NCBI GenBank assembly: GCA_034414575.1
Contig: DAOULZ010000001.1
Coordinates: 4,458-68,457 of the forward strand
DNA from: Dehalococcoidales bacterium
GTDB lineage: Bacteria; Chloroflexota; Dehalococcoidia; Dehalococcoidales; UBA5760
DNA length: 64,000 bases
Direction of reading: 5' to 3'
In this document: positions 30,995 to 39,179 of the stretch, one piece after another
How the letters are laid out: every line of letters begins with the position of its first letter
Numbering within the stretch: the first letter of the stretch is position 1
Notes under the pieces: generated by a model
What the model saw: the letters and a program-made list of their open reading frames with translations, nothing else
Databases searched by the model: none
What the model was told of the DNA's origin: nothing
Made by a program: the position numbers and the translations under genes

Positions 30995-31822
30995 ATGCCC
31001 GAGCTTCCGGAAGTAGAGACGATAAAGAACGAGCTTATCGCCCACGTCGTCGGGCGTAAGATTACCGGGATCACCCTCGGCTGGGAAGGGATAGTTAAAA
31101 AGCCCTCGTTAGCAGAATTCTGTTCTCGCCTCATGGGGCAGCAAATAAGCAGGCTCAGTCGGCGCGGCAAGTACCTCATCTTCAGCCTGAGCAGTGGCCA
31201 AGCCCTGATTATCCACCTGAAGATGACCGGCTCACTGCTACTTAATCACGCTTCGGATAAGCTTGATAAATTCACACGCGCCGTGCTGGATCTGGATAAC
31301 GGTTGCCAGCTCCGCTTCCGCGACCCGCGTAAGTTCGGAGCCATGTGGCTGGTGGAAGACATAAGCAGCGTGGTAGGAAAGCTTGGCCCCGAACCTCTGG
31401 AAGAAGACTTCACCGCCCGGGTGCTGGCGGAGCGGCTGGCCAAGCGCAAGGCACCAATAAAACCCGTTCTCCTCGACCAGAACTTTGTTGCCGGTATCGG
31501 TAACATGTATGCCGATGAGGCTTTGTATGATGCCAGAATCCACCCCCTAAGGCTAGCACCAAGCCTGACTCAGGAAGAGATAACGAGACTTCATAGGGCT
31601 ATCCAACAGGTATTGTGGGCAGCCATCGGCAATAAGGGGGCCAGTGTGGAGAACTACTTCCGTCCCGGCGGGGAGCTGGGCACAGCGCACTTTGAGTTTC
31701 GGGTCGCCCACGGGCTGGGGGGTAAGTTCTGTCAGCGGTGCGCCACACCGATTGAGAGAATAGTGATCCGTAACCGGGGCACCTACTTCTGCCCCAGGTG
31801 CCAGCCGCTATTCACCCTCTAG
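30995..31822 (+). CDS. mutM: Formamidopyrimidine-DNA glycosylase
   Basis: N-terminal MPELPEVE, RRGKYL, HLKMTG, DPRKFG, GIGNMYADE and C-terminal Cys4 zinc finger. Confidence 0.97.
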   Translation: MPELPEVETIKNELIAHVVGRKITGITLGWEGIVKKPSLAEFCSRLMGQQISRLSRRGKYLIFSLSSGQALIIHLKMTGSLLLNHASDKLDKFTRAVLDLDNGCQLRFRDPRKFGAMWLVEDISSVVGKLGPEPLEEDFTARVLAERLAKRKAPIKPVLLDQNFVAGIGNMYADEALYDARIHPLRLAPSLTQEEITRLHRAIQQVLWAAIGNKGASVENYFRPGGELGTAHFEFRVAHGLGGKFCQRCATPIERIVIRNRGTYFCPRCQPLFTL

Positions 31823-32791
31823 CTTCCTAAAGTCTTTCGCAGGCCACATCTTATGTTGTGAGCAAAAACGTAATATTTCCTTCTTTTCTTCCTCGGTATA
31901 CTCAAAGAAGTAACTTCTAAACGCCAACGTGTCATAGGGCCCCATGATAACAAAAAATCTACCCTTAGTAGCAAAAAACAGCGGGTTTATATCGCGACGA
32001 ACAACATCAGCCAGCCAATTAGCTGCCTTTGTAGCTTCTATCACATGTTTTTTACATTTATCTTGCCAAGCGTCATATTCATTAAAAAGCTGCTGATATA
32101 CGTCATGGTCTTCTATCCACCCTTGGGACCTATAAAACCTTTCTTCAACTAATATGTTATCTCGCGTCTTGCTAGTTTCACAATGTTCACAAAATGTCGC
32201 GATAGCCGCATGCGTCTCGTAAGTCAATTTTTTAAGTGCACATTCCAGCTCAGGCAGAGTCTTCGGCCACACAGCACCAATAATCTTGTTGAGGAATTCA
32301 AATAATCTTCTCGGCGCGTCTTCATCCCAGTTCATATTTGTAGACAGTGCCCGACTCGCCCATTTATCCCAGCTATCAAGCTGACATGCTTCCACTGTAG
32401 CATCTATTAAGTCTGCATAAATTACATCTTGCGCAGTCTTACGTATGTCCCCGCTCTCAGAGAGTGTCTGCTGCACCCACAATTCATGCTGGTCTTTAAT
32501 TAAATGTAATTTCTCAACAGGGTAGTCTTCCGGACTCTTATCAATAATTACGTGATGAGTGGGACACAGGAGAATAAGATTAAAATATGAGTTACGTTCG
32601 TCTATAGAGAGAGGACTCTTTCCTCGTGGAGCACTATCACTCTCCCCGACAATATGTGCCTGCTCGCCTAGAGGAAAACTTTCGGAAGCTAGACTTTTAT
32701 CTTGCGTTAGTTCAATTCTACAGTCGGGGAATGAACACCGCCCTGCTGCTCTAGCCCACAGTAACTTAATATCCCTCTGCGAAATGGACAT
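31808..32791 (-). CDS. HNH endonuclease domain fused to an uncharacterised ~210-aa helical domain
   Basis: KLLWARAAGRCSFPDC...GEQAHIVG...PRG...NLILLCPTHH.IID; lower GC than the flanks. Confidence 0.85.
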   Translation of the reverse strand: MSISQRDIKLLWARAAGRCSFPDCRIELTQDKSLASESFPLGEQAHIVGESDSAPRGKSPLSIDERNSYFNLILLCPTHHVIIDKSPEDYPVEKLHLIKDQHELWVQQTLSESGDIRKTAQDVIYADLIDATVEACQLDSWDKWASRALSTNMNWDEDAPRRLFEFLNKIIGAVWPKTLPELECALKKLTYETHAAIATFCEHCETSKTRDNILVEERFYRSQGWIEDHDVYQQLFNEYDAWQDKCKKHVIEATKAANWLADVVRRDINPLFFATKGRFFVIMGPYDTLAFRSYFFEYTEEEKKEILRFCSQHKMWPAKDFRKLEGE

Positions 32792-33624: not shown

Positions 33625-35088
33625 TTACTGCAGCTTATCTATCGCCGTCCCAATCCGCTCAAGACACCGCTTCTTACCCAAGACTGACATAGTTTCAAAC
33701 AGGGGCGGGGCTACCATCCGCCCGGTAACCGCTACCCGCAGCGTGCCGAAAAGCTGTCCCGTCTTCAGCCCCAACTCCCCAGCCAGAGGCCTGAGCACCG
33801 CCTCCAGAGACTCGTGGTCAAACTTCTCAATTGGCTCAAGCCGCTGCCTTGATGCTTCTAACGCCTGGATGGCTGATTCCTGATTCATTTTCTTGACTAT
33901 CAACAGATGAGGCCCGTAGTTAAGCTCATCAGTAAAAAAGAAGTCAACGAGCTCGGCTACCTCAGCCAGAATGCGCGCCCGCTCCTGGATAAGGGGCGTA
34001 ATCTGCCTGGTGTAGTCTATGTCCAGCGGCCGCTTGACCCCGGCGGGCAAACCCTTCTCCAGAAACGGCATTACTCTCTGTGTAAAATCCTCCACGGTCA
34101 GACTACGAAGGTACACCCCGTTCATCCAGTCGAGCTTATCCCGATTGAAGATGGCTCCCGTCTTGCTGATTCGATCCAGAGAGAAGTTCTCCACCAGCTC
34201 CTGGCGCGACATAATCTCGGTCTTGTCATCCAGAGACCAGCCGATTAAGGCGAGAAAGTTGAACATCGTCTCCGGCAGGTAACCCTGCTGCCGGTACTCG
34301 AGGATAGAGACCGCGCCGTGCCGCTTACTGAGCTTAGAGCGGTCAGGGCCAAGTATCATCGGGTGATGGACAAACTGCGGCGGCTCAAGCTCCAGAGCCT
34401 GATAGAGGAGCATATGGCGCGGGGTGCTGGAGATCCACTCCTCAGCCCGAATAACGTGGCTTACCCTCATGGCGCTGTCATCAACCACGTTAGCCAGGTG
34501 ATAGGTGGGGTAGCCATCGGACTTAAGAAGCACGAAATCATCAATGGTGCTGTTCTCAAAGACCACCTCCCCCCAGATAAGGTCATTAAATCGGGTCTGC
34601 CCCTCAAGCGGGACCTTAAAGCGGACCACCGGCGTGATGCCTTCTGCCTCCCGCTGCGCCCTTTCCTCCCGGGTTAAATCACGGCAACAGCGGTCGTAGC
34701 CCGGCGGCTGCTTGCTTCTCACCTGCTCGGCGCGCATCTCCTCCAGCCGCTCTGGGGAACAATAGCAGTAGTAGGCATCCCCCTGGGAAACGAGCCGCCC
34801 CGCCGCCTCGTGATACAGCTCAAGACGCTGCGACTGAAAGTAGGGCCTGTAGTCACCCCCCACCTCCGGCCCCTCATCCCAGTCAAGCCCCAGCCACCTG
34901 AGGCCGTCAAGGATAGCCTCGAGCGCCCCCTTAACCTTACGGGCAACGTCGGTATCCTCAATGCGGAGGATAAACTTGCCGCCCGTGTGTCGGGCCAGGA
35001 GCCAGTTAAACATGGCCGTCCGCATATTGCCCACGTGGGGGTAGCCGGTGGGGCTGGGGGCAAAACGCACTCTAACTGGTGTGGTCAT
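33625..35088 (-). CDS. gltX: Glutamate--tRNA ligase
   Basis: RFAPSPTGYPHVG, LRIEDTD, YHLANVVDD, KLSKR. Confidence 0.98.
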   Translation of the reverse strand: MTTPVRVRFAPSPTGYPHVGNMRTAMFNWLLARHTGGKFILRIEDTDVARKVKGALEAILDGLRWLGLDWDEGPEVGGDYRPYFQSQRLELYHEAAGRLVSQGDAYYCYCSPERLEEMRAEQVRSKQPPGYDRCCRDLTREERAQREAEGITPVVRFKVPLEGQTRFNDLIWGEVVFENSTIDDFVLLKSDGYPTYHLANVVDDSAMRVSHVIRAEEWISSTPRHMLLYQALELEPPQFVHHPMILGPDRSKLSKRHGAVSILEYRQQGYLPETMFNFLALIGWSLDDKTEIMSRQELVENFSLDRISKTGAIFNRDKLDWMNGVYLRSLTVEDFTQRVMPFLEKGLPAGVKRPLDIDYTRQITPLIQERARILAEVAELVDFFFTDELNYGPHLLIVKKMNQESAIQALEASRQRLEPIEKFDHESLEAVLRPLAGELGLKTGQLFGTLRVAVTGRMVAPPLFETMSVLGKKRCLERIGTAIDKLQ

Positions 35089-35096
35089 ACTTTAAC

Positions 35097-36179
35097 TCAA
35101 AGCCTCTTTAATGAATCTAGAGAGAAGTCTATTTCCCATACCTCGGGAGAGGTTGAGATTGAACTTAAGCAACTAACCTCACTCACTATATTGTCAGATA
35201 CATCATTAAGGCTAGAGGTTAGTGAGACTAAGATAGGCTTTATATTAAAGCCTCTTCCTCCTAAAATATGGCCACCTATGTCTTCTCGTGCCCAACTGAT
35301 ATAATATTCAAGCTGTATGGGTGCAAAATTTACGTTTGTTGTCGACTTAGGGTGCTTTAATTCTATCAATCTATATAAATTACTTGTTTCGTCTATCTTT
35401 TCTATGGTAACGACATCTATTTTTTGCATTCCAGTACCAGCAAATACTTCATTACCTATCCATACTATATTTCTACCAAATATTTCAGGGAAAAATTTAT
35501 TACTATATAACTCGAGGTTTTGTAAAATGTAAGCCTGAAAGTGTGTCTCACTATTCCCAATGTCCGCTTTCGGCACAACTACAGAATCACCAATGCTGTG
35601 GCTACAAGTTGCATCCCCCTTACAAATTTTGTAATTAGAGCAATCTACAGTAAAGTCTCTGTAACTCAAGGATTCACCATGATTCTCGTCTGCTATTAGA
35701 GAAATTAGCCGCTCTGTTTCCCAAGGGAAAAGCATTGTGTTTCCTCTTCCTGCTTTCATTTTCCTATATATAAGAGTCCATAACAATTCTTTTGAATAAG
35801 TAGGTAGCTTATCTAATGCCTCCCACTCCAGAACCCCCTTGCTATAAACCTTGTAAGGTTGTATCCTCTTTCTATATATTAGCTTTAGTGGTTTAGTTTC
35901 TCCCTTTTTGATATATACAGGTAGATTGGGGTTATTAGCATTGTTACCGGTTAAGTGATATACAACTTCATCCACTGCTTTAAAGACCCCAAAGAACCTT
36001 CCCTTCTTATTTTCCCTACCTTCAATATAGAAGAAAATAAAATCCCCCCCTTTTACCCTAACTATGTCTGAGAGAAGGCCTATATTATTGTCTCTACCCC
36101 CAGTGCTAACTCCAACAAACATGTATTCCAAATGGATTGGGAGTGTTTCTTCATTTACTATAAAAACATGGCCTCTCAT
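35097..36179 (-). CDS. EVE/DCD (PUA-superfamily) domain fused to a NucS-like PD-(D/E)XK nuclease; putative modification-reading restriction endonuclease
   Basis: N-terminus GHVFIVNEETL...FVG...RVKGGDFIFFY...FFGVFKA; C-terminus ETHFQAYI...NEV...KIDVV...LIELK...QLEYY. Strongly AT-rich. Confidence 0.75.
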   Translation of the reverse strand: MRGHVFIVNEETLPIHLEYMFVGVSTGGRDNNIGLLSDIVRVKGGDFIFFYIEGRENKKGRFFGVFKAVDEVVYHLTGNNANNPNLPVYIKKGETKPLKLIYRKRIQPYKVYSKGVLEWEALDKLPTYSKELLWTLIYRKMKAGRGNTMLFPWETERLISLIADENHGESLSYRDFTVDCSNYKICKGDATCSHSIGDSVVVPKADIGNSETHFQAYILQNLELYSNKFFPEIFGRNIVWIGNEVFAGTGMQKIDVVTIEKIDETSNLYRLIELKHPKSTTNVNFAPIQLEYYISWAREDIGGHILGGRGFNIKPILVSLTSSLNDVSDNIVSEVSCLSSISTSPEVWEIDFSLDSLKRL

Positions 36180-36182
36180 TAG

Positions 36183-37325
36183 CTATTTCCCTTTTTTAAA
36201 AAGCATAATGTATTCGTGCTTGAAGACATAAAAGCCACCAACCAACGCCCGGTATCGCCAAAGTTCCCTTTGGTTTCTCTTAGCCCGTGTTTCCTCAAAG
36301 TTTTTGACTATTATGCCCTTTAGTGAGTATTTTCTTTTTAAAACTTCCTCCATACAATAGAAACCCAAGGGTATCCATTCACCCCTGGAATATTTATCTC
36401 CTATAACAAGAGTAAAATATCTTCCCTTCTCCAAGAATAAAGCCGCATTATCCACTACCTCACCAAACATTTTCAGGAATTCACCAACATTTTCAGCCTG
36501 AGAGAGGTCTCTTCGGTTTTTAGAAAAGCCGATAATGTCGTAATAGGGGGGATGCATAATAAGAAGTTGAACCTGCTTTACGCCATATTTTTCAAGAATT
36601 TTTTCAATATTCACAGTTCTGCTATCTTCAGGGATAACTTCAGTGGTTACACCATATTTATTAATTTCCTTCTCCACTAACTCCTTTGCTTTCCCAGCCA
36701 CTTCAGGATTTAGCTCTATCCCAATGCCATTTCTTCCCAACCTGCGGCATTCAATCAGTGTTGTTCCACTACCAACAAAAGTATCTAAAATCCAATCTCC
36801 TCTCTTGGTATATCTGAGCATCATTTGGTGGGGAATCTGTGGAATAAAGTTTCCCCAATACCAACCAAGATGAGCGCCCGCAGTGTCTCGCTTATCAAAC
36901 ACCCAAAGACTATCAGTAATGATGTCATCATATTCCTTCCATCTCAGAAGGTTTATATCGCTAACTTTGTTAGTCTTAGTCCTTTGAACTCCGCTCTGCA
37001 ATCTCTTCAAGTAATATTTAGCTCTCTCGATGGTCTGTGCCTCTAAAATCTGATCCAGCTCTGAAATAAGCACATCCCTACGCAAAGAGACAGTGTCGCC
37101 ATTTGAATCGATGTTTAATATGCCTTCTTGGTCGTCCCTAGGGAAAGATATAACCCATTTTAACGAGACAACCCCATTCTTTAGCCGAGTCAAATCGGTT
37201 ATATCGCCGTACTCTTCTAGAATCCCTACAAACCTCTCTTTGTTCAGAATGGCAAGACCCGAAACCGGGGAGGCTAACTCTAAACTTTCAAAAAGTCTTG
37301 GCTCTACTCTACGGTTATTTTTCAT
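36183..37325 (-). CDS. N4-cytosine/N6-adenine DNA methyltransferase with N-terminal extension
   Basis: GNFIPQIP, SAM-binding LDTFVGSGTT, GIELN, catalytic-type MHPPY, HEYIMLFKK; AT-rich. Confidence 0.9.
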   Translation of the reverse strand: MKNNRRVEPRLFESLELASPVSGLAILNKERFVGILEEYGDITDLTRLKNGVVSLKWVISFPRDDQEGILNIDSNGDTVSLRRDVLISELDQILEAQTIERAKYYLKRLQSGVQRTKTNKVSDINLLRWKEYDDIITDSLWVFDKRDTAGAHLGWYWGNFIPQIPHQMMLRYTKRGDWILDTFVGSGTTLIECRRLGRNGIGIELNPEVAGKAKELVEKEINKYGVTTEVIPEDSRTVNIEKILEKYGVKQVQLLIMHPPYYDIIGFSKNRRDLSQAENVGEFLKMFGEVVDNAALFLEKGRYFTLVIGDKYSRGEWIPLGFYCMEEVLKRKYSLKGIIVKNFEETRAKRNQRELWRYRALVGGFYVFKHEYIMLFKKGK

Positions 37326-37370
37326 AACTTTTTCCTTTTGCCTATTCTACCACCCAAATCTAAGGAGATT

Positions 37371-38290: not shown

Positions 38291-38827
38291 TTAGGCTGCG
38301 GGAGAACCGCTGTCGTTACGCGAGGCCACCTGCTTCTCCCTAACGAGGAGATAGATCAGGAAGCCAGCGAATACCGAAGTGCCCGTGGTTATTGAGGCAT
38401 CAGCCACATTAAACGCCGGGAAGGTGCCAACCCCAATAAAGTCGGTAACGTAGCCCAAGCTTAACCGGTCAATCAGGTTACCTACCGTGCCACCGAGAAC
38501 CACGCCCAGCGCCGCCATGCTTATCCCGTTATTCAGGAAGGCATACCGACGGCGAACATAGAAGGTGTAGAACAGAATAACAGCCGCCCCGATAAAGCTA
38601 ACTATGGTCAGTGGAAAGGTATGATTCTGAAATATGCCGAAAGCAGCCCCGGTATTTTGGACATGAGTCAGCCGCAGAAATCCCTCTTCAGGTAACGATT
38701 GCCCGACCGCCAGGTTAGACCGTATCCATGCCTTGCTGAGCTGGTCACCAACCGCTATCGCCAGGGCAACAAGGAAAAAGACTACCGTTCGCCACCACTT
38801 ACCCCAGAAACTACTTACCCTTCGCAT
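38291..38827 (-). CDS. lspA: Lipoprotein signal peptidase
   Basis: DQLSK, NTGAAFG, GGTVGNLIDR, VTDFI, FNVAD. Start moved to ATG 38827, which overlaps the dksA stop. Confidence 0.93.
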   Translation of the reverse strand: MRRVSSFWGKWWRTVVFFLVALAIAVGDQLSKAWIRSNLAVGQSLPEEGFLRLTHVQNTGAAFGIFQNHTFPLTIVSFIGAAVILFYTFYVRRRYAFLNNGISMAALGVVLGGTVGNLIDRLSLGYVTDFIGVGTFPAFNVADASITTGTSVFAGFLIYLLVREKQVASRNDSGSPAA

Positions 38828-39179
38828 CCTTTGCCTGACTAGCCTTACAATCCAAGCACAGGCTTGCTTGGGGGAGAGCATCCAGCCTTTCCGGGGGGAT
38901 AGGCTGGCCACAATTGTCACACAGGCCATAGGTCCCCTGCTCAAACTTGGCTAGCGCGTGCTCAACTGCCGTCAGTTGGTCTATAATACGCTTCTCCAGC
39001 TCAAGGCGCGTCTCCAGCTCAGCCGCCTCGGTAGCTTCTTCCTCTCTCTTACCAAAGGGACTGCCCTCCCGCCTCTCATCCGCCGGCCGGACACTGGCCT
39101 TTAATTGCTCCAACTCTTGAGTTAAACGCTTTTGCTCACTCTCCAAACGAGCGCGAAGTAAATCGTAGTTAGTAGCCAC
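38811..39179 (-). CDS. dksA: TraR/DksA C4-type zinc-finger protein
   Basis: Coiled coil, then GTYGLCDNCGQPIPPERLDALP.ASLCLDC; SD GAGGAGG. Confidence 0.85.
   Translation of the reverse strand: MATNYDLLRARLESEQKRLTQELEQLKASVRPADERREGSPFGKREEEATEAAELETRLELEKRIIDQLTAVEHALAKFEQGTYGLCDNCGQPIPPERLDALPQASLCLDCKASQAKDAKGK

What the first reader, a model, noticed from the sequence alone, without database searches (positions are those of the whole stretch)
35097..37325. Methyltransferase + EVE/DCD-reader PD-(D/E)XK nuclease module: an atypical restriction-modification system
Seen: an AT-rich two-gene cassette (3-nt gap, same strand) inserted in the dksA-lspA-rluD-gltX run. Gene 1 is an amino-MTase (motif I DTFVGSGTT before an unusual HPPY catalytic motif) with a ~120-aa extra N-terminal region. 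Gene 2 has an N-terminal PUA-superfamily EVE/DCD-like domain (G.VFIVN.ET...FVG...VK.GD.IFFY...FFGVF.A) and a C-terminal NucS/EndoMS-like nuclease (E..FQ.YI..N...NEV...IDV...IELK...QL..Y). Established: EVE/DCD/YTH/SRA domains read modified bases, and their nuclease fusions usually act as modification-DEPENDENT restriction enzymes without a cognate MTase. Pairing with an MTase is therefore the puzzle. Hypotheses (inference): the reader uses the host mark as an allosteric self signal, or licenses cutting of unmethylated sites as BREX/DISARM-like logic would; the system restricts a phage modification while the MTase masks the host; or the MTase marks invading DNA for destruction. Being embedded in an essential operon would keep it constitutively expressed.
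Basis: partly seen in the sequence, partly recalled or inferred. Interest (0 to 1): 0.75.

Follow-up and report, generated by a model that had tools for sequence, protein, structure and literature searches.

The report
Restriction-modification pair with EVE-domain nuclease
This is a two-gene restriction-modification system whose DNA-cutting enzyme carries an EVE "modified-base reader" domain, yet always travels with a protective methyltransferase and swaps places with an ordinary restriction enzyme in related genomes. The reader domain therefore most likely checks that DNA lacks the host's methyl mark, rather than hunting for modified phage DNA.

Summary
Two minus-strand genes, 3 nt apart, form a 37-40% GC cassette between rluD and gltX. 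Gene 1 is an amino-MTase (motif I at residue 181, invariant HPPY at 258). Gene 2 is an EVE-fold N-domain fused to a PD-(D/E)XK nuclease (E211, D255, E273-x-K275). The "NucS-like" label is not supported.

The pairing is obligate: every informative locus with the nuclease (over 30, many phyla, unrelated neighbours) has this MTase just upstream. In relatives of the window organism the same rluD…gltX slot keeps the MTase (77-84% identity), but the nuclease is either a 32%-identical EVE-nuclease or an IceA/NlaIII-family HNH restriction enzyme. Phage contigs carry the MTase alone. Some R genes are frameshifted beside an intact M.

The nuclease therefore behaves as the methylation-blocked R subunit of a Type II-like system. 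It is not a modification-dependent enzyme, and "MTase marks DNA for destruction" is excluded.

How the well-conserved EVE domain senses methylation is inferred only: it may license cutting on an unmethylated flipped base, or inhibit on the self mark. The target site is unresolved (GATC or CATG).

This is a new variant of a known kind, of moderate-to-good interest.

The parts
36183..37325 (-). DNA amino-methyltransferase (M subunit). It has a family-specific N-terminal region (residues ~1-125), motif I DTFVGSGTT (residue 181), and motif IV HPPY (residue 258) placed after motif I. Its highly conserved C-terminal region is the putative target-recognition part.
   Evidence: Pfam N6_N4_Mtase 2.5e-20. 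PADLOC Type II MTase PDLC03351 7.6e-144, full length. Motif positions, and their invariance across MTases paired with different nucleases. More than 7,000 homologs.
35097..36179 (-). EVE-PD-(D/E)XK nuclease (R subunit), 360 aa.
   Evidence: ORF. 1,886 homologs, nearly all unnamed. 326 clusters at 50% identity with constant architecture. AF2 pLDDT 89.8, pTM 0.89. The MTase is immediately upstream in every informative locus.
35685..36179 (-). EVE-fold domain (residues 1-165), including the conserved C-terminal strand/helix segment LWxLIYRKxKxxRGNT. Residues invariant across six clades: H4, T12, F21, G23, D38, D46, F50, Y51, F62, G64, K67, R103, V116, E118, W134, K140, R145, G146.
   Evidence: Foldseek against PDB: PH1033 E=1e-6, MJECL36 target TM 0.74, THYN1, VcaM4I, YTHDF2. 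Pfam EVE weak in 34/37 members. Conservation 0.50-0.57 across clades, as high as or higher than the nuclease core.
35565..35684 (-). Variable linker with two beta-hairpins (residues 166-205).
   Evidence: Secondary structure of the models. Low cross-clade conservation, 0.29.
35100..35564 (-). PD-(D/E)XK nuclease domain (residues 206-360). Catalytic candidates are E211, D255, E273 and K275, plus Q289.
   Evidence: Invariant in 37 sequences and in six clades. Alpha-beta-beta-beta-alpha-beta core in the model, pLDDT 90.6. Weak Pfam YhcG_C PDDEXK hits in 6/37 members. Foldseek hits are non-significant but are almost all PD-(D/E)XK nucleases.
35089..35108 (-). Junction with gltX. There are only 8 nt between the nuclease stop (TGA, 35097-35099) and the gltX ATG (35086-35088). 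Any gltX ribosome-binding site (AAGAGG at 35103-35108, or GAG overlapping the stop) lies inside the end of the nuclease gene.
   Evidence: Sequence read directly. The same tight R-gltX coupling is seen with the IceA-like R gene in L039, L040 and L043.
37326..37370 (-). 45-nt spacer between the rluD stop and the MTase ATG, containing an AGGA-type ribosome-binding site. No promoter was detected.
   Evidence: Sequence. Promoter and terminator scans are at chance level.

Best explanation
The cassette is a Type II-like restriction-modification system.

The MTase puts an N6-adenine or N4-cytosine methyl mark on a short site in host DNA. The candidates are GATC and CATG, with adenine more likely. The EVE-PD-(D/E)XK protein is the restriction endonuclease. 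It cuts DNA that lacks this mark and is blocked by the mark.

Shown:
- The domain make-up of both proteins.
- The obligate M-to-R linkage across phyla.
- Replacement of this nuclease by a classical IceA/NlaIII-family HNH restriction enzyme next to the same MTase, at the same chromosomal slot in related genomes.
- Orphan copies of the MTase on phage contigs.
- Decay of R with retention of M.

Inferred: the EVE domain is the methylation-status sensor. It probably flips the target base into its conserved aromatic/acidic pocket. The favoured version is that only the unmethylated amino group fits or bonds, which licenses the nuclease domain. The alternative is that binding the methylated self base holds the nuclease inactive.

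The cassette is transcribed and translated as part of the dksA-lspA-rluD-M-R-gltX operon, with gltX translation coupled to the end of the R gene.
For: Domains:
- MTase.
- EVE fold.
- PD-(D/E)XK motif.

Linkage:
- The MTase is immediately upstream on the same strand in 25/25 informative genome loci from many phyla. The other 3 start at a contig edge.
- It is also upstream in 4/4 further loci with unrelated housekeeping neighbours, in viral L029, and in L033/L034.

Interchangeability at the same rluD…gltX slot, in relatives with gltX 72-80% and rluD 68-73% identical:
- M at 80% with a 32%-identical EVE-nuclease (L033).
- M at 77-84% with an ICEA-family HNH REase (L039, L040, L043).
- The third genes in L014 and L036 pass Pfam's ICEA cutoff (27.4 and 29.1 bits against 24).
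- MTase motifs and the C-terminal region are the same whichever partner is present.
- M and R similarities are incongruent. The window's closest MTases sit beside clade-2, clade-3 or ICEA nucleases, while its closest nucleases sit beside MTases that are 55-74% identical.

Phage contigs L030 and L031 carry the MTase without the nuclease.

R decay: R is frameshifted next to an intact M in L045, and there is a truncated remnant in L044.

The EVE domain is as conserved as the catalytic core across six clades.

Precedent for amino-group reading: in VcaM4I's EVE pocket the flipped cytosine's N4 donates two hydrogen bonds (PMC7897488), so N4 or N6 methylation could plausibly be sensed.
Against: - There are no biochemical data. 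The recognition site, the methylated base and the cleavage behaviour are all unknown.
- All characterized EVE- and PUA-nuclease fusions are modification-dependent (PMC6765204, PMC7897488).
- Three independent intact three-gene loci carry both an ICEA-like and an EVE nuclease with one MTase (L014, L036, L041/L042). That is odd if the two nucleases are fully redundant, and it hints at a complementary activity.
- The C-domain has no significant structural neighbour.
- Site inference conflicts. The ICEA family points to CATG. GATC avoidance in the window lineage, and a distant HPPY MTase in a DpnII-like cluster, point to GATC.
- Sequence-level support for EVE is sub-threshold.
Confidence: 0.7

Rival explanations
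1. Self-mark-gated, 'anything but self' nuclease. The EVE domain positively recognises the MTase's methylated base and switches the nuclease off. DNA lacking the exact mark is then cut, including phage DNA whose hypermodified bases block ordinary restriction enzymes. This would explain why the EVE nuclease is sometimes kept alongside a classical IceA-like enzyme.
For: - EVE and YTH domains characteristically bind modified bases in hydrophobic pockets.
- This family has invariant aromatic residues F21, F50, Y51, F62 and W134.
- In VcaM4I the EVE domain and linker autoinhibit the nuclease (PMC7897488).
- Intact three-gene loci with both nucleases exist in both gene orders.
- It is compatible with all the linkage and swap data.
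Against: There is no direct evidence. The known EVE nucleases use binding to activate, not to inhibit. Three-gene loci are a minority (3 of about 40) and could be transitional states of R replacement.
Confidence: 0.2
2. A conventional modification-dependent (Type IV/IIM) EVE nuclease that attacks foreign modified DNA such as 5mC, 5hmC or a different m6A context. The neighbouring MTase would be functionally separate, either masking host sites or acting as an epigenetic orphan.
For: All characterized PUA/EVE-nuclease fusions are modification-dependent (PMC6765204; PMC7897488). Bell et al. propose EVE-linked R-M systems that also hit modified DNA (PMC7641849).
Against: - The strict M-to-R linkage, with 2-40 nt spacing in every informative locus across phyla, would be unexplained.
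- The nuclease occupies the same slot as a classical REase beside the same MTase.
- R decays while M persists, and phages carry an orphan M.
- Lutz et al. used the absence of MTases as the hallmark of such enzymes.
Confidence: 0.07
3. An RNA-directed module. The MTase modifies rRNA or tRNA, and the EVE-nuclease reads or cleaves RNA. This would fit its position between rluD and gltX.
For: EVE and YTH domains also bind modified RNA. The MTase has weak hits to RNA m2G MTase families (TRM5/TYW2, UPF0020, TIGR01177; E about 1e-2 to 3e-4). JGI often labels homologs RsmD. In the window lineage the neighbours are RNA-related.
Against: - The strong full-length match is to a Type II DNA MTase profile (7.6e-144) and to DNA MTase Pfam and PHROG families.
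- Neighbours differ completely in other phyla.
- The alternative partner is a restriction-endonuclease family.
- The cassette is low-GC and mobile, and phage orphan copies exist.
Confidence: 0.03

Closest known systems
Classical Type IIP restriction-modification systems, in particular IceA/NlaIII-type (HNH REase plus m6A MTase) systems
   Same: Two-gene M-to-R operon and mobile low-GC cassette. The same MTase family is found paired with an ICEA-family REase at the identical locus in relatives. Orphan MTases occur on phages, and R decays while M is retained.
   Different: The nuclease is an unrelated fold (PD-(D/E)XK) fused to an EVE reader domain that no characterized Type IIP enzyme is known to use. 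The recognition site is untested. The ICEA-like partners here are only distantly related to NlaIII (27-29 bits).
PUA/EVE-nuclease modification-dependent restriction enzymes (VcaM4I/TspA15I EVE-HNH; YenY4I group PUA-PD-(D/E)XK; MspJI/AspBHI SRA-like-PD-(D/E)XK)
   Same: N-terminal PUA-superfamily reader domain plus C-terminal nuclease in one ~350-aa chain. VcaM4I is a direct structural hit for the N-domain.
   Different: Those enzymes are solitary: fewer than 6% have a DNA MTase within 3 kb. They cut modified DNA. This family is always MTase-linked and interchangeable with a methylation-blocked REase, which implies the opposite logic.
EVE/DCD-associated R-M-like systems predicted by Bell et al. 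2020 (standalone EVE with Type I R-M; DCD-MTase fusions followed by a PD(D/E)XK nuclease)
   Same: Co-occurrence of an EVE-like reader, an MTase and a PD-(D/E)XK nuclease in one operon. Methanocaldococcus loci even add a standalone EVE gene after R.
   Different: The system is a minimal two-gene Type II-like pair. This exact arrangement was not found in the passages read.
Standalone archaeal EVE proteins PH1033 / MJECL36
   Same: Best structural matches to the N-domain (E about 1e-6, target TM 0.70-0.74). The sequence register is shared: GDxhhhY, GhaxV, YRhxh.
   Different: Those are ~145-aa single-domain proteins of unknown ligand. Here there is an inserted helix (residues ~125-142) and a fused nuclease.
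NucS/EndoMS
   Same: PD-(D/E)XK C-terminal catalytic domain preceded by a beta-barrel-like N-domain. One distant clade gives a weak NucS_C hit (6.8e-4).
   Different: The window protein has no NucS hit by Pfam or Foldseek. There is no PCNA/beta-clamp motif context, and the protein is MTase-linked.

Membership tests
Type II restriction-modification system | DNA MTase with SAM-binding motif I and catalytic motif IV | tested here: met
   PF01555 2.5e-20. PADLOC MTase_II 7.6e-144. DTFVGSGTT at 181 and HPPY at 258, invariant across homologs.
Type II restriction-modification system | Adjacent endonuclease gene with an intact catalytic motif, conserved as a pair with the MTase | tested here: met
   Invariant E211, D255, E273-x-K275. 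The MTase is upstream in all informative loci.
Type II restriction-modification system | Nuclease and MTase recognise the same short DNA site, and cleavage is blocked by the cognate methylation | not testable with these tools
   Indirect support only: interchange with an ICEA-type REase beside the same MTase, phage orphan MTases, and R decay with M kept.
EVE domain (Pfam PF01878, PUA superfamily) | Sequence match above Pfam's gathering score | tested here: not met
   16.7 bits against a cutoff of 23 for the window protein. 34/37 family members match weakly, best 4.2e-5. hhalign against a bona fide EVE gives E=0.0099.
EVE domain (Pfam PF01878, PUA superfamily) | EVE/YTH beta-barrel fold | tested here: met
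   Foldseek: PH1033 1e-6, MJECL36 2.7e-6 (target TM 0.74), THYN1, VcaM4I, YTHDF2, 2eve, on a model with pLDDT 89.8.
EVE domain (Pfam PF01878, PUA superfamily) | Pocket that accommodates a flipped (modified) base | tested here: inconclusive
   Invariant aromatic, acidic and basic residues lie on the topologically equivalent elements (compared with VcaM4I pocket residues). No coordinate-level superposition or ligand test was possible.
PD-(D/E)XK nuclease superfamily | E...D...(D/E)xK motif on an alpha-beta-beta-beta-alpha-beta core | tested here: met
   The motif is invariant. The secondary-structure order appears in a model with pLDDT 90.6. Weak YhcG_C hits.
PD-(D/E)XK nuclease superfamily | Significant structural similarity to a solved member | tested here: inconclusive
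   Best Foldseek E is about 0.1. The top hits are AddB, BsmI, SPARDA, HamA, CinB and Mus81, all PD-(D/E)XK but none significant.
NucS/EndoMS | Match to the NucS C-terminal nuclease domain (PF01939) or to NucS structures | tested here: not met
   No hit for the window protein. Only the L033 clade hits, at 20.1 bits against a cutoff of 24.
Modification-dependent PUA-nuclease restriction enzymes (Type IV/IIM) | Solitary gene without a cognate DNA MTase | tested here: not met
   The family MTase is adjacent in every informative locus, whereas the figure for known PUA-nucleases is below 6%.
Modification-dependent PUA-nuclease restriction enzymes (Type IV/IIM) | Cleavage requires modified DNA | not testable with these tools
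   This needs enzyme assays.
DCD domain | Match to PF10539 | tested here: not met
   No hit for the window protein. Only the standalone EVE of L035 gives a weak DCD hit.
ICEA/NlaIII restriction endonuclease family (alternative partner, not in the window) | Pfam PF05315 above the gathering score | tested here: met
   27.4 and 29.1 bits against a cutoff of 24 for the L036 and L014 genes. PF05315 is precomputed on many of the 318 homologs.

The most novel reading that the evidence does not exclude
The EVE domain is a positive reader of the host's own methyl mark, and reading the mark vetoes cleavage. The enzyme would then cut any copy of its site that lacks the exact self mark, including hypermodified phage DNA that escapes ordinary restriction enzymes. 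It would be a reader-gated 'anything-but-self' restriction enzyme, which would explain why it is sometimes kept together with a classical IceA-like enzyme under one MTase.
Probability: 0.2. Interest if true: 0.8.

Novelty: new variant of a known kind. Interest (0 to 1): 0.58.

Why it matters
EVE, YTH and SRA domains are known as readers that recruit nucleases to modified DNA. This is a large, uncharacterized family: about 1,900 sequences in 326 clusters at 50% identity, spanning bacteria, archaea and some viral contigs. In it, the same fold sits in the nuclease of an MTase-protected system and can be swapped for a textbook restriction enzyme.

If the inference is right, an EVE domain is being used to verify either the absence of a methyl group or the presence of the self mark. 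That extends what PUA-superfamily domains do, and it gives a tractable two-gene system for studying how a base-flipping reader discriminates methylated from unmethylated amino groups.

It also offers potentially new restriction enzymes from thermophiles, and a clear natural example of non-orthologous displacement of the R gene at a fixed chromosomal slot next to an essential gene.

Tried and rejected
1. Sequence searches of the nuclease against the PDB, as a single sequence and as a profile, found nothing useful.
2. PADLOC, NCBIfam and PHROGs gave no family for the nuclease.
3. The C-domain modelled alone and searched with Foldseek gave no significant neighbour, and NucS was not recovered.
4. 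The ~210-aa 'EVE-less short forms' seen turned out to be a frameshifted gene (L045) and a truncated remnant (L044). They are not natural nuclease-only enzymes.
6. I tried to infer the recognition site from palindrome avoidance. GATC is strongly avoided in the window lineage and CATG is not, but pooled hosts avoid both (and CTAG). The result is not decisive.
7. The HPPY motif is not described in the searchable literature.
8. UpaP162, a CATG REase 'without recognisable domains' (PMC6191088), was considered as a possible characterized homolog. Its partner MTase is C5-like and its sequence is held only as an image, so the link could not be tested and seems unlikely.
9. Plasmid records hold no homolog of the nuclease, and only one distant MTase relative.
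10. There are no flanking direct repeats, integrase genes, or promoter/terminator signals above chance around the cassette.
11. The RNA-modification reading was rejected (see the rival explanations).
Full report
**Observation**

The window carries two minus-strand ORFs at exactly the stated coordinates: 36183-37325 (380 aa) and 35097-36179 (360 aa). They are separated by TAG-cta-ATG. GC falls to 0.35-0.43 across them, against 0.55-0.64 on both sides, with sharp edges.

Upstream on the same strand are a dksA-type zinc-finger gene, lspA and rluD. Downstream is gltX. The packing is very tight. There are 45 nt between the rluD stop and the MTase start. There are only 8 nt between the nuclease stop and the gltX ATG, so any gltX ribosome-binding site lies inside the end of the nuclease gene.

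Consensus scans find no promoter or terminator above chance, and repeat search finds no insertion scars.

**Gene 1: the methyltransferase**

It matches Pfam N6_N4_Mtase (2.5e-20). It matches the PADLOC Type II MTase profile PDLC03351 over almost its whole length (7.6e-144, residues 26-378). The "extra" N-terminal ~120 residues are therefore a regular feature of an existing, if unstudied, MTase family and not a novelty of this gene.

Motif I (DTFVGSGTT) is at residue 181, and HPPY at residue 258 follows it. This order is permuted relative to the beta-class enzymes that PF01555 mostly describes. Both motifs are invariant in all homologs examined.

The family is very large, with more than 7,000 hits at E<1e-10. 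I found no description of an HPPY catalytic motif in the searchable literature.

**Gene 2: the nuclease**

By sequence, the EVE assignment is sub-threshold: 16.7 bits against Pfam's cutoff of 23. However, 34 of 37 family members give the same weak hit.

An AlphaFold2 model built on a 37-sequence alignment is confident (pLDDT 89.8, pTM 0.89). Its N-terminal ~165 residues match solved EVE and YTH domains. The hits are PH1033 (E=1e-6), MJECL36 (target TM 0.74), THYN1 bound to 5mC DNA, the EVE-HNH restriction enzyme VcaM4I, YTHDF2, and the founding EVE structure 2eve.

The C-terminal half has invariant E211, D255, E273-L-K275 and Q289 on an alpha-beta-beta-beta-alpha-beta core. This is the PD-(D/E)XK signature. 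Modelled alone (pLDDT 90.6), the C-terminal half has no significant structural neighbour. The weak hits are nearly all PD-(D/E)XK nucleases (AddB, BsmI, SPARDA, HamA, CinB, Mus81), and NucS is not among them. A distant clade gives a sub-threshold NucS_C hit.

So "EVE plus PD-(D/E)XK" is confirmed, while "NucS-like" and "DCD-like" are not.

**Is the pairing real?**

The nuclease family has 1,886 detectable members. These form 326 clusters at 50% identity, with a constant ~350-400-aa architecture. Almost all are unnamed. They are spread over Elusimicrobia, WOR-3, Planctomycetes, Omnitrophota, Kryptonia, Thermodesulfobacteria, Dehalococcoidales, Methanocaldococcus and others.

- In 28 genome loci, a homolog of the window MTase lies immediately upstream on the same strand in 25. 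The other three start at a contig edge.
- Four more loci on long contigs show the same M-to-R pair among unrelated housekeeping neighbours.
- I found no locus with room upstream and no MTase.

This contrasts with characterized PUA-nuclease fusions. Fewer than 6% of those have a DNA MTase within 3 kb, and the authors used that fact as evidence of modification dependence (PMC6765204).

**The decisive comparison**

Looking up contigs that encode the closest MTase homologs showed that relatives of the window organism carry the MTase at the same chromosomal slot. In these relatives gltX is 72-80% identical, rluD 68-73%, and fpg 62%. The nuclease partner differs:

| Locus | Arrangement |
|---|---|
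| L033/L034 | rluD - (glycerate kinase) - M (80% identity) - EVE-nuclease only 32% identical to the window's - gltX |
| L039, L040, L043 | M (77%, 80%, 84%) - ~216-aa Cys-rich HNH protein - gltX |

The HNH protein belongs to Pfam's ICEA family. That is the IceA/NlaIII restriction-endonuclease family. Its members in L036 and L014 score 27.4 and 29.1 bits against the cutoff of 24. It has 318 homologs.

The MTases beside EVE-nucleases and beside ICEA-like enzymes are indistinguishable in their motifs and in the conserved C-terminal region.

Similarities are also incongruent. The window's nearest MTases sit next to ICEA, clade-2 or clade-3 nucleases. Its nearest nucleases (67-75%) sit next to MTases that are 55-74% identical. 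The R slot is thus exchanged freely under a constant M. This is what one expects if all these nucleases are restrained by the same methyl mark.

**Further life-cycle evidence**

- Viral contigs carry the MTase with the nuclease once (L029). Twice they carry it without the nuclease: L031, next to a tape-measure-like gene and other structural genes, and L030, next to a second MTase. This is the familiar phage tactic of self-methylation to escape a methylation-blocked enzyme.
- The ~210-aa "short forms" in the homolog lists are decay products. L045 has a frameshift inside LWSLIYRK, with an intact MTase upstream and transposase fragments beside it. L044 has a truncated MTase and a nuclease remnant next to a more distant full-length EVE-nuclease. 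R decay with M retained is typical of classical R-M systems.
- Stable coexistence of M and R everywhere excludes the idea that the MTase marks DNA for destruction by this nuclease.

**What the EVE domain does**

Across six divergent clades the EVE domain is as conserved as the catalytic core, or more so (0.50-0.57 against 0.43). Its invariant residues are H4, T12, F21, G23, D38, D46, F50, Y51, F62, G64, K67, R103, V116, E118, W134, K140, R145 and G146. It is therefore functional.

In VcaM4I the EVE pocket sandwiches a flipped cytosine between aromatic residues and takes two hydrogen bonds from its N4 amino group (PMC7897488). A pocket of that kind could discriminate an unmethylated from an N4- or N6-methylated base in either direction.

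- My favoured reading is that the domain flips the target base and only the unmethylated form fits, which licenses cleavage.
- The alternative is that it binds the self mark and vetoes cleavage.

The alternative would make the enzyme insensitive to other phage modifications. It would also explain three intact three-gene loci where one MTase serves both an ICEA-like and an EVE nuclease, in both orders (L014 and L036; L041/L042). Neither version can be tested here.

**Recognition site**

This is unresolved.

- Characterized members of the ICEA family (NlaIII, H. pylori IceA/HpyAI) act on CATG with m6A protection (established knowledge). But the ICEA-like partners here are distant from those enzymes.
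- The only relative of the MTase in a cultured organism is a 244-aa HPPY enzyme in Fusobacterium vincentii. It lies in a cluster with a Dam-like MTase, a DpnII-like REase and an Mrr-like gene, which is a GATC context.
- In the window, GATC is the most depleted 4-mer palindrome (84 observed, 245 expected). In the syntenic relatives it is nearly absent (2 observed, 37 expected), while CATG is not depleted there.
- Pooled over all host loci, both are at about 0.55.

I therefore give GATC or CATG, probably m6A, as candidates only.

**Comparison with what is known**

In logic and gene organisation this is a Type II R-M system. In protein architecture the nuclease resembles the PUA-nuclease modification-dependent enzymes, but it fails their defining genomic criterion of solitariness.

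Bell et al. (PMC7641849) describe standalone EVE genes with Type I systems, and DCD-MTase fusions followed by PD(D/E)XK nucleases. I did not find this fused EVE-nuclease plus separate MTase pair in the passages read.

I rate it a new variant of a known kind. REBASE, which I could not query, may already list these genes as putative.

**Verdict**

The system is atypical in its architecture, but most probably ordinary in its self/non-self logic.
- The open and interesting question is how an EVE domain reads methylation status in a methylation-blocked enzyme.
- Interest is 0.58.

Noticed in passing
window 31808-32791 (minus strand): A second low-GC island (0.40-0.44) encodes a 327-aa protein. Its N-terminal ~117 residues match HNH nuclease modules of defence effectors (PADLOC PDC-M68A 1.6e-33, SAVED-HNH 7e-31; Pfam HNH_2 just above cutoff). 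The C-terminal 200 aa have no match. It sits between fpg and a DUF3795 gene, and the syntenic relative L039 lacks it.
   Followed up: partly
window, whole 64 kb excluding the cassette; L039, L040, L043: GATC (observed/expected 0.34, z=-10) and GGCC (0.55, z=-9.6) are strongly avoided in the host sequence. In the close relatives GATC is almost absent (2 observed against 37 expected). This suggests long exposure to GATC- and GGCC-specific restriction in the lineage.
   Followed up: partly
L035 6101-6547 (Methanocaldococcus lauensis) and L012 7086-7526: A standalone 146-148-aa EVE protein (Pfam EVE 1.7e-28) lies directly after the M-to-EVE-nuclease pair. These archaeal loci therefore carry two EVE domains, one fused to the nuclease and one free.
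   Followed up: partly
L014 7062-7730; L036 4562-5212; L041/L042 4001-5799: Three-gene versions carry one MTase and both an IceA/NlaIII-like HNH nuclease and an EVE-nuclease, in either order, with all genes intact. It is unclear why both nucleases are kept.
   Followed up: partly
L040 2299-2837: A 119-aa fragment matching the ThaI restriction endonuclease family (PF15514), plus a 78-aa ORF, lie between rluD and the MTase. This looks like a remnant of yet another R-M system at the same hot spot.
   Followed up: no
L033 3540-4895: In one relative, a glycerate-kinase-like gene (DUF4147/MOFRL, GC 0.46) is inserted between rluD and the MTase. This indicates that the rluD-gltX interval is a recurrent insertion site.
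   Followed up: no
L044 1961-6208: A composite decayed locus. It holds a truncated MTase, a distant full-length EVE-nuclease (346 aa), a 211-aa remnant of a clade-1 EVE-nuclease, and then a second R-M pair (N6_N4 MTase plus a BglII-family endonuclease).
   Followed up: partly
L046 (NZ_CP084075.1 657170-663859): In Fusobacterium vincentii, a 244-aa MTase with the same unusual HPPY motif sits in a Dam-like MTase / DpnII-like REase / Mrr-like cluster. The record is labelled a 2.1-Mb 'plasmid' with one annotated feature and is probably a chromosome.
   Followed up: partly
BFVD hits A0A481Z0B9 (Mimivirus LCMiAC01) and A0A2H4UVJ4 (Bodo saltans virus): Giant-virus proteins of 312-345 aa, one named 'EVE domain-containing protein', align to the full-length model over both domains (Foldseek E=1.7e-4 and 4e-4). 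This suggests related two-domain EVE proteins in eukaryotic giant viruses.
   Followed up: no
window 38291-39179 (minus strand): The longest lspA ORF (TTG start at 38944) overlaps the dksA-like ORF by about 130 nt. The true lspA start is probably further downstream.
   Followed up: no
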